NCBI RefSeq assembly: GCF_009914755.1
Contig: NC_060931.1
Reading direction: 5' to 3' (one strand)
DNA length: 64,000 bases
From: the human T2T-CHM13v2.0 reference genome, Homo sapiens
Shown: piece after piece, positions 43,601 through 46,600 of the stretch
Layout: each line of letters starts with the position of its first letter
Position numbering within the stretch: the stretch's first letter is position 1
The notes under the pieces: model-generated
Databases searched by the model: none
What the model was told of the DNA's origin: nothing
Seen by the model: only the letters and a program-made list of their open reading frames with translations
Position numbers and translations under genes: made by a program

Positions 43601-46600
43601 ATGGCAGAAGCAGGCTGTCCTTGGGCCTCTTCGGGCTGAAGGCAGTGGATTGAGGCCACAGCTGTGAGCAGGCAGCTAACGTCCTTCAGTTCTAACTGAA
43701 GAGTAGAGGAGCTTAGATCTCAGACTTGGTGTGTCAGTTGAGGAAGTCCACTGGCTTTTTGGGATATGCTACAGGGAAAGAGAACCCTGTCTTTAAGGAG
43801 ACCTGATTAACTATAATTCCCTGTGTCTCCACAGGATGCAGAAGGCTATCAACAGGCTGAGCAGGCTTCTGAAACCTGGGGGGATGGTACTTCTGCGAGA
43901 TTACGGCCGCTATGACATGGCTCAGCTTCAGTTTAAAAAAGGTATTTTGAGAGTGCTGAATCCTAACCACTAGAGATCATGTCCTTTGCAGGGACATGGA
44001 TGAAGCTGGAAATCATCATTCTCAGCAAACTAACACAAGAACAGAAAACCAAACACCATATTTTCTCACTCATAAGTGGGAGTTGAACAATGAGAACACA
44101 TGGACGCGGGGTGGGGGGCATCACACACTGGGGCCTGTCTGGAGGTGGGGGGGCTGGGAGAGGGAGAGCATTAGCAGAAATACCTAATGTAGATGACGGG
44201 TAGATAGGTGCAGCAAACCTCCATGGCACGTGTATACATATGTATCAAACCTGTATGTTCTGCACATGTACCCCAGAACTTAAAGTATAATTTTAAAAAA
44301 AAAAAAGGTATGTGGCCACTATAATCAAAAAATGGTGCTGCCATCAGAATAGAAACTCTAGAATTAGAACTCCTTATATAAAGCCATTTAATATGTGACA
44401 GAGTAGTATATTTTTTAAGAAAACTGAAGAGGCTTGTATAATCTAGATATTGAGGTCTTTTTAAGCAAGACAGCTACCTTTAGAAGAGCTTTTATTAGAA
44501 AGACATTTGAAAGACAGCCGGGCGCAGTGGCTCATGCCTGTAATTCCAACACTTTGGGAGGCCGAGTCGGGCAGATCACCTGAGGTCAAGAGTTCGAGAC
44601 CAGCCCGACCAACATGGAGAAACCCTGTCTCTACTAAAAATACAAATTAGCCGGGCATGGTGGCACATGCCTGTAATCCCAGCTACTCGGGAGGCTGAGG
44701 CAGGAGAATCGCTTGAACCCAGGAGGCGGAGCTTGCAGTGAGCCGAGATCGCACCATTGCACTCCAGCCTGGGCAACAAGAGTGAAACTCTGTCTCAAAA
44801 AAAAAAAAAAAGACATCTGAAAGACATAAATAATTTTAAATGTGGCATGACAAAAGATGCCATTAAAAATGTAAAAGGCAAATGACGGAGTAAGAAGGAA
44901 TATTTTCAGTGCATATAATAGATGAAGACTTAATATCTTTGCTCTTCAGGGAGCTGTCATGAAACTGATAAGGATCAGTGACCCACCCAAAAAGCAGGTG
45001 AAGAGTGTTTAGTCAGTTCACAGAAGAACGTATCTAAATGGCCAGTAAACAACACTTCAAGGAAATAAAAATAACAAGTTAGTACTTCTTATTGCTGGCC
45101 AATTCAAAGAAAGAGGTGCATTCCTTCATTACTGGTAGAAAAAGAAATTGTTACAGCCTTTTTTTTTTCAGATGGAGTTTTGCCCTTGTTGCCCAGGCTG
45201 GAGCGCAATGGCGCGATCTCGGCTCACTGCAACCTCTGCCTCCTGGGTCCACCCACCTTGGCCTCCCAAAATGCTGGAATTACAGGTGTGAGCCACTGTG
45301 CCCAGTATTAACAGCCTTTTTTTTTTTTTTTTTTTGAGACGGAGTCTCGCTCTGTCTCCCAGGCTGAAGCGCAATGGCACGATCTCGGCTCACTGCAACT
45401 GCAACGTCTGTCTCTTGGGTTCAAGCAATTCTCCTGCCTCAGCCTCCCGAGTAGCCGAGACTACAGGCATGTGCCACCACGCCTGGCTAATTTTTTTGTA
45501 TTTTTAGTAGAGACAGGGTTTCACCATGTTGGTCAGGCTGGTCTCAAACTCCTGACCTCAGGTGATCCACCCACCTCGGCCTCCCAAAGTCCTGGGATTA
45601 CAGGCGTGAGCCACTGCTCCCAGCTTACAGCCTTTTTTTAAGTACCCAATTATTGTTCAGTCCAGTCTTTTTTTGAATATAGTCAAGAACTAGCACATAA
45701 TACATGCAGGAGCAAAACTTTGTAAACAAAGTGAATGCCTCTGGATAGGGAGATGTCGTGCTTGTCACCTGAGGTGGACCCCATTCCACTGAACTTGGAG
45801 GGATTTCTGTTGTGTATTCAGTGAGAGGAGAGCAATGTGCAAGGGAGTATTTTAAACTCCATCCCCGTATACCAGTATCTGCAGGGAAATAAGTATACAC
45901 GTGTGATGATTTGGGCATTCGGGAAGGTCTAGAAGTATGTGCCAGGCTGGTAAACTGAGATGAGGTCAGGGAGGTTAGCAGCAGAAGGGAAAGCATGTTC
46001 ATGATCAAAACAGTATCTGAGTTGTATTTATGATTCTGTAGACACGTGAAGAGACATGCAAAGGACAGTCACCACCAAAATGGTAATGGTTGTCTCAAGT
46101 TTCCTTAAACTCAGCTATATTGCTTAATTAAAGAAAAAAAATAGGCCAGGCACGGTGGCTCATGCCTTTAATCCCAGCACTTTGGGAGGCCAAGGCGGGT
46201 GGATCACCTGAGGTCAGGAGTTTGAGACCAGCCTAGCCAACATGGTGAAACCTTGTCTCTACTAAAAATACAAAAAATTAGCTGGGCGTGGTGGTGGGAA
46301 CCTGTAATCCCAGCTACTTGGGAGGCTGAGGCAGGAGAATCACTTGAACCTGGGAGGCAGAGGTTGCAGTGATCTGAGGTCACGCCATTGCACCCAGCCT
46401 AGGCAACAAGAGCGAAACTCTGTCTCAAAAAAAATAAATAAATAAAAAGTTTGTGCTGTTAGTTTAATAGGGTTGGGAGAGTGAACAAGTTGTTTTCATC
46501 AAATAATTCTAGAGTTTTGGAGTGGGGTGCTTAGGAACCTCATGTTTTCTGACATTGTGACTTACTCCCGTTGAGCTGCTCTTCCCGAAGCACTGAGGCA

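What the first reader, a model, noticed from the sequence alone, without database searches (positions are those of the whole stretch)
43946..43980. Antisense tRNA-Glu(CTC) 5'-half captured in the L1 insertion, 6 nt from a donor of a tRNA methyltransferase gene
Seen: between the TSD and the L1 body lies TGAGAGTGCTGAATCCTAACCACTAGA, the reverse complement of tRNA-Glu-CTC nt 11-37. It ends right after the anticodon, is preceded by extra Ts and joins L1 through a GA microhomology. Both mismatches are C>T, so the pre-mRNA could still pair over all 27 nt using G:U wobbles. Known: 5' halves of tRNA-Glu-CTC cleaved in the anticodon loop are abundant stress and germline small RNAs; twin priming yields inverted 5' segments. 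Inference: a fossil of an (oligoadenylated) tRNA half reverse-transcribed from the second nick. More speculatively, it is a site at intron +7 to +33 where tRNA halves could shift choice toward the poison donor, coupling tRNA cleavage to METTL2 output. Glu tRNA is not a known METTL2 substrate.
Basis: partly seen in the sequence, partly recalled or inferred. Interest (0 to 1): 0.8.

Follow-up and report, generated by a model that had tools for sequence, protein, structure and literature searches.

The report
tRNA-Glu fragment fused to L1 insertion
A 27-base backwards copy of part of a glutamate tRNA was pasted in together with a LINE-1 fragment right at a splice site of METTL2B; this is a real but apparently inert fossil of a recently described kind of insertion.

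Summary
Observation confirmed. Window 43948-43974 (+) is the reverse complement of nt 11-37 of the human tRNA-Glu-CTC gene (25 of 27 bases; both differences are CpG>TpG; none expected by chance). It lies inside one 11-bp target-site duplication (AAAAAAGGTAT), with a TT filler and a 5'-truncated L1 3' end. The L1 starts at 43973 with a GA overlap, and its poly(A) runs to 44306. The insertion site is a TTTTTT/AAA endonuclease site straddling the METTL2B exon-7 donor. METTL2A has the same junction, so the event predates the chr17-to-chr7 duplication.

A tRNA piece ending near nt 37, antisense to L1, within one TSD pair, is the tRNA/LINE-1 chimera class published in 2025-26. That work ascribes it to twin priming on tRNA halves. 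This locus is not among its 21 listed loci.

Elsewhere in the genome, tRNA-Glu-CTC copies repeatedly end at nt 36-39, both as solo "tailless retropseudogenes" and in one Alu chimera.

Whether the template was a cleaved half or a whole tRNA primed in its anticodon loop stays open.

The proposed control of donor choice by tRNA halves has no support. The 27-mer has diverged between paralogues (1 of 27) like the flanking intron, and METTL2A's change breaks a pair.

Verdict: new member of a known kind, modest interest.

The parts
43835..43941 (+). METTL2B exon 7; its last 7 bases (AAAAAAG) are part of the upstream TSD copy
   Evidence: Hub annotation given with the finding. The frame was checked by translating the annotated CDS.
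43935..43945 (+). Upstream copy of the target-site duplication AAAAAAGGTAT. It spans the exon end and intron +1 to +4, and so regenerates the proximal donor AAG|GTAT.
   Evidence: The same 11 bases occur at 44301-44311. On the bottom strand the site reads TTTTTT/AAA, which fits the L1 endonuclease motif quoted (TT/AAAA). There are no differences between METTL2A and METTL2B here.
43946..43947 (+). TT filler between the TSD and the tRNA piece. It now forms intron positions +5 and +6 of the donor in use.
   Evidence: It is not part of the downstream TSD copy (which continues GTGG) and does not complement tRNA nt 38-39, which are CC.
43948..43974 (-). cDNA copy of tRNA-Glu-CTC nt 11-37 (sense on the minus strand), with two CpG decays
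43973..44294 (+). 5'-truncated L1 3' end (end of ORF2 plus 3' UTR), sense on the + strand. It overlaps the tRNA piece by GA (43973-43974).
   Evidence: 4519 first-look candidates in the genome, with the 38 listed copies at 89-92% identity; junction alignment; 82.9% identity over 339 bases to the 3' end of an element that a published table appears to list as L1PA4.
44295..44306 (+). A run of 12: the L1 poly(A) tail merging into the six A of the downstream TSD copy
44301..44311 (+). Downstream TSD copy AAAAAAGGTAT, which carries the ancestral donor AAG|GTATGT (exon would end at 44307)
43971..43973 (+). TAG, the first in-frame stop if splicing used the distal donor. It lies inside the tRNA-derived piece.
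   Evidence: read-through gives [10 protein letters not shown], with the stop codon ending 32 nt after 43941.

Best explanation
This is the fossil of a single L1-mediated insertion into the ancestral METTL2 gene, made before the chr17-to-chr7 segmental duplication.

Inferred sequence of events:
1. L1 endonuclease nicked the bottom strand at TTTTTT/AAA, at the end of exon 7.
2. L1 RNA was reverse-transcribed from its poly(A), and only about 330 nt of L1 were kept.
3. The top strand was cut 11 nt downstream, after GGTAT.
4. That 3' end primed a second reverse transcription on a tRNA-Glu-CTC molecule, starting at nt 36/37. Most likely this was a 5' fragment that ended in the anticodon loop.
5. 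This second cDNA stopped at nt 11 and joined the L1 cDNA at a GA microhomology.

Result: TSD - TT - antisense tRNA(37..11) - L1 3' end - poly(A) - TSD.

Shown: the sequence identities, the order and orientation of the parts, the TSD, and the shared junction in METTL2A. Inferred: twin priming, the nature of the RNA template, and that the piece has no function today. It is best read as neutral intron sequence. By accident, it and the TT filler now supply intron position +5 onward of the donor in use.
For: 1. The tRNA identity is beyond chance.

2. One TSD pair encloses TT, the tRNA piece, L1 and the poly(A). L1 homology begins at 43973.

3. METTL2A (L008/L073) has the identical junction with one extra substitution. 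A paper passage says METTL2B arose by duplication of METTL2A from chr17 to chr7.

4. A published class has the same anatomy. It lists 21 tRNA/LINE-1 chimeras, 16 of 21 antisense to L1 and 12 of 21 ending at consensus nt 35-39. TSDs of 9-19 bp were found in 8 of 8 sampled cases and an EN motif in 6 of 8. The authors ascribe them to twin priming on tRNA halves.

5. The nt 36/37 boundary recurs for this tRNA.
- Of the 20 non-gene hits of the 27-mer search, 14 end at nt 36/37. These are 10 solo copies, the METTL2A/B pair and an Alu-chimera pair. The other 6 reach nt 67 or beyond, and none ends between 38 and 66.
- Of 50 further loci found with a seed from nt 1-26, 16 end at 36-39, 24 at 22-27, 10 at 62-72 and none at 28-35 or 40-61.

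6. L068/L069 show the same layout with a 5'-truncated Alu in place of L1, inside the TSD AAAAGGGAG.

7. In L134 an antisense full-length tRNA-Glu next to an L1 starts at its CCA end, directly at the TSD. In that case the second primer started at a true RNA 3' end.

8. Extracellular small-RNA counts for this tRNA fall from 3,752 reads at 36 nt to 6 reads at 37 nt (PMC5356006 Table 7). Natural 5' fragments therefore do end at this spot.
Against: - No outgroup genome was available, so the empty site was not seen.
- Only GGTAT of the TSD is free of ambiguity with the poly(A).
- The L1 side of the junction needs one mismatch (43976) for the GA overlap. Otherwise GAGA is filler.
- The piece is 5'-truncated at nt 11, unlike most listed chimeras, which start at nt 1-3.
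- Noll et al. 2015 (passages) argue for internal priming rather than truncated RNA templates for tailless retropseudogenes. They studied 5S and U2.
- Natural halves rarely include A37 (6 reads), so the T at 43948 may copy an added A rather than A37.
- Lack of function is inferred from one paralogue comparison over 27 bases, which has little power.
Confidence: 0.8

Rival explanations
1. Same single insertion event, but the template was a whole tRNA-Glu-CTC (mature or precursor). The top-strand end primed internally in the single-stranded anticodon loop, so no cleaved half was involved.
For: Noll et al. 2015 (passages) report that tailless retropseudogenes are truncated at single-stranded regions. 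They found the target site complementary to the last 2-18 nt of the annealed RNA, found no oligoadenylated truncated forms for 5S and U2, and concluded internal priming.

Several solo Glu-CTC copies have targets that already contain CTCA or TCA where the tRNA ends (L006, L063, L089, L097, L100, L104). Four copies run to nt 39.
Against: At this locus the primer end ...GGTAT has at most one base of complementarity to the loop (T opposite A37). Two extra T are also present that a whole tRNA (nt 38-39 = CC) cannot template.

The anticodon loop of this tRNA is not A-rich.

No copy ends in the T loop region: 0 of 70 non-gene loci end at nt 40-61.

Some copies ending at nt 24-26 carry real poly(A) tails (L088, L098, L133), so truncated and tailed tRNA fragments were templates at least sometimes.
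Confidence: 0.25
2. The antisense tRNA piece is a working regulatory site. tRNA-Glu-CTC 5' halves or shorter tRF-5s pair with intron +7..+33 of the METTL2A/B pre-mRNA. They then either mask the proximal donor, favouring the distal stop-containing donor, or guide Ago2 to the nascent RNA.
For: 27 nt of complementarity with two G:U pairs; duplexfold gives -52.3 kcal/mol, against -4.7 for the half folded alone.

Use of the distal donor meets a TAG after 10 further codons.

5' Glu-CTC fragments are abundant.
Against: - No sign of constraint: 1 of 27 differences between paralogues against 3.5-5.1% in the flanks, and the METTL2A change breaks a pair.
- RefSeq lists a single METTL2B transcript, which uses 43941 (hub annotation).
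- METTL2 is not mentioned in the main text of PMC8860591.
- The genome holds many other copies of the same segment (45 and 108 pattern matches), so the site is not special.
- tRNA-Glu is not among the m3C32 substrates named in the review passage, so no feedback logic follows.
Confidence: 0.03
3. Two separate insertions: a tailless tRNA-Glu retropseudogene landed first next to the donor, and an L1 later landed inside or beside it.
For: Solo tailless Glu-CTC copies ending at nt 36-39 are common (10 + 16 loci).
Against: The only direct repeat present (AAAAAAGGTAT) encloses both parts. The tRNA piece has no TSD of its own. An L1 inserted later would have its 5' TSD copy directly at its own 5' end, made of tRNA or intron sequence, and it does not.
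Confidence: 0.03

Closest known systems
tRNA/LINE-1 chimeric insertions (Cell Genomics 2026, PMC13174262; preprint 10.1101/2025.02.02.635956)
   Same: A tRNA segment lies directly 5' of a 5'-truncated L1, inside one TSD pair at an EN-type site. The tRNA is antisense to L1 and its end lies near nt 37. The published explanation is twin priming on tRNA halves.
   Different: This locus is not in their tRNA sheet. That sheet has no chr7 row and one chr17 row, at 37.1 Mb. 'METTL2A/B' has 0 hits in the 4 supplement files, and coordinate strings that I recalled for hg38 also have 0 hits. The piece here is only 27 nt and is 5'-truncated at nt 11. It sits 6 nt from a functional donor and is present twice through a later segmental duplication.
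Tailless retropseudogenes (Schmitz et al. 2004, not held, known here only through citations; Noll et al. 2015, PMC5322556)
   Same: 3'-truncated tRNA copies that end in loop regions, made by the L1 machinery without an A tail. The solo Glu-CTC copies I found fit this class and share the nt 36-39 endpoint with the window's piece.
   Different: Those are stand-alone, nearly 5'-complete, and flanked directly by their own TSD, in the orientation of first-strand priming. The window's piece is fused to L1, inverted relative to it, and 5'-truncated.
L1 twin-priming 5' inversions (Ostertag and Kazazian 2001; seen only as a reference entry and in the description)
   Same: The inverted segment sits at the upstream TSD and joins a sense 3' segment at a microhomology.
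   Different: The inverted segment here is a tRNA, not L1 RNA.
U6/L1 chimeric pseudogenes (PMC6789731)
   Same: A small Pol III RNA joined to a 5'-truncated L1 within one TSD.
   Different: U6 is in sense orientation and full length. It is explained by RtcB ligation of RNAs before reverse transcription or by template switching. Neither gives an antisense piece.
tsRNA-guided nascent RNA silencing (PMC8860591)
   Same: tRNA-derived small RNAs acting on intronic complementary sites.
   Different: It was reported for Dicer-dependent, mostly short tsRNAs with Ago2 slicing (abstract), not for splice-donor choice. METTL2 is not mentioned in the main text.

Membership tests
tRNA/LINE-1 chimeric insertion | tRNA-derived segment immediately 5' of an L1 fragment | tested here: met
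   The tRNA piece is at 43948-43974 and L1 starts at 43973.
tRNA/LINE-1 chimeric insertion | [quoted passage not shown] | tested here: met
   AAAAAAGGTAT occurs at 43935-43945 and 44301-44311, the A run is at 44295-44306, and the bottom strand reads TTTTTT/AAA.
tRNA/LINE-1 chimeric insertion | Both parts inserted at the same time, as shown by cross-species alignment | not testable with these tools
   Only the human genome is held. The paralogue METTL2A shares the whole structure, which shows only that the structure predates the duplication.
tRNA/LINE-1 chimeric insertion | Typical form: half-length tRNA (about nt 1-37), antisense to L1 | tested here: met
   The piece is antisense and its 3' end is at nt 37. 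Its 5' end is at nt 11 rather than nt 1-3, which is a variation. The table also has pieces starting at nt 8 and one of only 28 nt.
Tailless retropseudogene | Stand-alone 3'-truncated RNA copy flanked directly by its own TSD | tested here: not met
   The piece has no TSD of its own and is fused to L1.
Copy of a tRNA 5' half (anticodon-loop cleavage product) | Template RNA had a free 3' end at nt 36/37 | tested here: inconclusive
   For: the recurrent endpoint, the TT filler, and the read-length drop at 36/37. Against: the internal-priming argument. The RNA itself cannot be recovered.
Functional small-RNA target site | Sequence constraint on the complementary site | tested here: not met
   1 of 27 differences between paralogues against 3.5-5.1% in the flanks. 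The change breaks a pair. The test has low power.

The most novel reading that the evidence does not exclude
The antisense tRNA-Glu-CTC piece at intron +7..+33 of METTL2A and METTL2B is a docking site for tRNA-Glu-CTC 5' fragments. When tRNA cleavage rises, the proximal donor is masked or the nascent RNA is sliced, so output of a tRNA m3C methyltransferase would fall in step with tRNA fragmentation.
Probability: 0.03. Interest if true: 0.75.

Novelty: new member of a known kind. Interest (0 to 1): 0.3.

Why it matters
This is a clean, unlisted example of a tRNA-fragment/L1 chimera. Every junction can still be read: endonuclease site, 11-bp TSD, 2-nt filler, start at tRNA nt 36/37, stop at nt 11, and a 2-nt microhomology with L1. 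It adds to the catalogue of 21 published loci. Such catalogues may miss short pieces or loci in segmental duplications; I did not test why this one is absent.

It also shows that an L1 insertion 4 nt into an intron can be tolerated when the TSD regenerates GTAT. Here the filler and the tRNA-derived bases became positions +5 onward of the working donor.

The side survey shows two sharp endpoint classes for tRNA-Glu-CTC retrocopies (nt 22-27 and nt 36-39), some with poly(A) tails. This bears on the open question of cleaved fragments versus internal priming as templates.

If the regulatory idea were true it would be a new feedback between tRNA cleavage and tRNA modification, but nothing here points that way.

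Tried and rejected
- ARAGORN on the window found 0 tRNA genes; the fragment is too short.
- Rfam at E<=10 on 43800-44100 gave no tRNA hit. It gave only weak minus-strand C/D-box snoRNA look-alikes (SNORD52, 79, 81 and others; 13.6-18.4 bits against gathering scores of 41-50; E 0.6-7.2). These rest on the TGATGA in the L1 part, so I rejected them as chance.
- A whole-tRNA BLAST of the genome scored only 40 of 73 candidates, nearly all full-length genes. It was useless for fragments, so I used pattern searches instead.
- Schmitz et al. [quoted passage not shown] What these say is known here only from citing passages.
- A literature search for tRNA + retropseudogenes + anticodon loop + LINE-1 + truncated returned 0 papers. 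The 'tRNA-lookalikes' papers were seen as a listing only.
- I rejected sequential insertion because of the TSD layout, and chance similarity because of the controls.
- L1 subfamily and absolute age were not determined, because no repeat library is on hand.
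Full report
**What is there**

The + strand around the end of METTL2B exon 7 reads ...CAGTTTAAAAAAG|GTAT TT TGAGAGTGCTGAATCCTAACCACTAGA GATCATGTCC.... The 27-mer TGAGAG...CTAGA is at 43948-43974.

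To get the reference tRNA from a tool rather than from memory, I searched the window's own genome with the 27-mer, allowing up to 3 mismatches. This gave 45 matches, against 0 for the backwards-read control. 25 of the 45 are full-length genes: 21 in the chr1 160.58-160.73 Mb tandem cluster and 4 elsewhere.

ARAGORN calls L011:1466-1537 (minus strand) a tRNA-Glu with anticodon ctc. The antisense of its nt 37..11 is TGAGAGCGCCGAATCCTAACCACTAGA. The window differs at two positions, both C>T at CpG on the + strand, and both CpGs of the segment have decayed. In the window itself, 0 of 100 shuffles give any match with up to 3 mismatches.

**Surroundings**

- AAAAAAGGTAT occurs at 43935-43945 and again at 44301-44311, after an A run that starts at 44295.
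- The bottom strand of the target reads TTTTTT/AAA. This fits the L1 endonuclease motif as quoted in the Cell Genomics paper (TT/AAAA in sense).
- Between the two copies lie, in order: TT (43946-43947), the 27-mer, and a high-copy repeat.
- A genome search with 43946-44294 gave 4519 first-look candidates. Of the 38 other copies listed, at 89-92% identity, 28 start aligning at query position 28 (= 43973), 7 at position 32, 2 at 29 and 1 at 25.
- In ten such copies the sequence upstream of the shared TCATGTCC reads ...GGATGAGT. Window columns 43973-43975 and 43977-43979 match 9 or 10 of 10 copies. Column 43976 and columns 43970-43972 match none.
- L1 homology therefore starts at 43973 with one mismatch, and tRNA homology ends at 43974.
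- The repeat aligns at 82.9% over 339 bases to the 3' end of the element in L134. By its chromosome, length and neighbouring antisense tRNA-Glu, L134 appears to be the chr13 row that the published table calls L1PA4. The equivalence of coordinates between assemblies is my inference.

**Age**

METTL2A (L008/L073, chr17 63.31 Mb) has the same TSD, TT, 27-mer (one extra G>A at the position of 43951), L1 and poly(A). A passage in PMC13333887 says METTL2B came from a segmental duplication of METTL2A from chr17 to chr7. The insertion therefore happened at the chr17 locus, and the window holds a duplicate of it.

**Mechanism**

The tRNA piece is antisense to L1. Its nt-37 end abuts the upstream TSD copy, and its nt-11 end abuts the 5' end of the truncated L1.

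Template switching or RNA ligation, the explanations offered for U6/L1 chimeras, would put the small RNA in sense orientation. An antisense piece at that position is what a second reverse transcription primed from the top-strand nick would give (twin priming).

Exactly this has been described. The preprint 10.1101/2025.02.02.635956 (sections 21 and 30 read in full) and its Cell Genomics version PMC13174262 (passages) report 21 tRNA/LINE-1 chimeras. The authors describe them as mostly half-length (1-37 nt) and antisense. TSDs of 9-19 bp were found in 8 of 8 sampled cases and an EN motif in 6 of 8. They ascribe the class to twin priming on tRNA halves.

In their table (mmc3, sheet 'tRNA') I count 16 of 21 antisense, 12 of 21 ending at consensus nt 35-39, and 5 rows from tRNA-Glu. 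There is no chr7 row, and the only chr17 row is at 37.1 Mb. 'METTL2A/B' occurs 0 times in the four supplement files that could be read. Coordinate strings that I recalled for hg38 also occur 0 times. The PDFs of the supplement could not be read.

**Is nt 37 a real boundary?**

The 27-mer search is blind to what follows nt 37, so it gives an unbiased sample. Of its 20 non-gene hits:
- 6 continue to nt 67 or beyond (L004, L005, L009, L061, L070, L071).
- 14 stop at nt 36/37. These are 10 solo copies (L001, L003, L006, L007, L062-L067), the METTL2B/A pair, and the pair L068/L069.
- None stops between nt 38 and 66.

L068/L069 read: TSD AAAAGGGAG - antisense Glu-CTC (about nt 37..12) - 5'-truncated Alu - poly(A) - TT - AAAAGGGAG. 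This is the same layout with Alu in place of L1.

A second search seeded on nt 1-26 gave 108 matches, of which 100 were listed. I fetched the 50 listed loci that were neither genes nor already seen. Of these, 24 end at nt 22-27, 16 at 36-39, 10 at 62-72, and none at 28-35 or 40-61. Eight matches were not listed and were not examined.

Most solo copies have A-rich TSDs that start directly at the tRNA end. They correspond to the 'tailless retropseudogenes' of Schmitz 2004 and Noll 2015 (passages).

**Half or internal priming?**

Noll et al. favour internal priming, from work on 5S and U2. The Cell Genomics authors favour halves.

For a free RNA end at this locus:
- The primer ...GGTAT has at most one base of complementarity to the loop.
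- Two T follow that the tRNA (nt 38-39 = CC) cannot template.
- In L134 an antisense full-length tRNA-Glu next to L1 starts at its CCA end, right at the TSD.
- Three copies ending at nt 24-26 carry A10-A15 tails (L088, L098, L133).
- Extracellular RNA counts fall from 3,752 reads (36 nt) to 6 reads (37 nt) for this tRNA (PMC5356006 Table 7).

For internal or microhomology priming:
- Six solo copies have CTCA or TCA already present in the target.
- Four copies reach nt 39.

I put the half at roughly 2:1. 'Oligoadenylated' rests on two bases only.

**Function**

The annotated CDS translates cleanly.
- The donor in use is AAG|GTATTT (43941/43942). Its positions +5 and +6 are the TT filler.
- The ancestral donor AAG|GTATGT survives at 44307/44308.
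- Using the distal donor would add 366 nt and meet a TAG at 43971-43973, inside the tRNA piece.

The pre-mRNA can pair with a Glu-CTC 5' half over the 27 nt (duplexfold -52.3 kcal/mol), but that follows from the origin of the sequence.

Between METTL2A and METTL2B the piece has 1 of 27 differences (3.7%). For comparison: exon 7 has 4 of 107 (3.7%), L1 16 of 319 (5.0%), upstream intron 69 of 1359 (5.1%) and downstream intron 51 of 1463 (3.5%). The single change puts A opposite C34.

RefSeq lists one METTL2B transcript. The review passage on m3C32 names Thr, Ser and Arg tRNAs as substrates, not Glu.

A precedent for tRNA-derived small RNAs acting on intronic sites exists (abstract of PMC8860591), but its main text does not mention METTL2. 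I see no evidence for the regulatory idea and rate it at about 3%.

**Verdict**

The locus is an unlisted member of that class. The splicing-control idea is unsupported.

Noticed in passing
L068 (G000:C7:57157402-57158028) and L069 (G000:C7:64856635-64857261): An antisense tRNA-Glu-CTC piece (about nt 37..12) is fused to a 5'-truncated Alu with a poly(A) tail, all inside the TSD AAAAGGGAG. This is the window's layout with Alu instead of L1, present twice through a duplication. The Cell Genomics passages I read describe Alu/LINE-1 and tRNA/LINE-1 chimeras. I saw no mention of tRNA/Alu chimeras, but I did not search for it (the attempt failed on syntax).
   Followed up: partly
L084-L133 and L001-L067 (own-genome loci): Retrocopies of tRNA-Glu-CTC end in two sharp classes, nt 22-27 (24 of 50 loci) and nt 36-39 (16 of 50). 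None ends at 28-35 or 40-61. Three copies of the short class (L088, L098, L133) carry A10-A15 tails, and L133 has a perfect flanking TSD. Noll et al. 2015 reported finding no oligoadenylated truncated forms for 5S and U2.
   Followed up: partly
L005, L061, L099, L102, L103, L120, L128: A repeated unit in which a full tRNA-Glu copy with CCA is embedded between the same 5' flank (gcaatctatttc...aaggttctaagttc) and the same 3' flank (agaaatggagcagga...). The published table annotates one such locus as tRNA-Glu-GAG next to antisense LTR2C 439-501. It looks like a retroviral primer-binding region that has taken up the whole primer tRNA.
   Followed up: no
window 42446-45794 against L073 (METTL2A): Paralogue divergence is 3.5-5.1% in intron and L1. 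A paper passage dates the chr17-to-chr7 duplication to 'the human-gorilla ancestor'. The divergence looks high for that date. I did not resolve this.
   Followed up: no
window 43942-43950 and 44308-44316: The L1 insertion landed 4 nt into intron 7. The TSD regenerated GTAT, and the TT filler replaced the ancestral +5 G and +6 T. The donor in use (GTATTT) therefore lacks the +5 G that the distal ancestral copy (GTATGT) keeps.
   Followed up: partly
L134 (G000:C13:57100600-57102200): A full-length antisense tRNA-Glu with its CCA end sits directly at the TSD AAAAATTATTTTG, followed by an L1 of about 1.15 kb and its poly(A). The last TG of the TSD can pair with the CA end of the tRNA.
   Followed up: partly
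window 43948-44027, minus strand: Weak C/D-box snoRNA look-alike hits (13.6-18.4 bits, far below gathering scores) span the tRNA piece and the start of L1. I judged them to be chance.
   Followed up: yes
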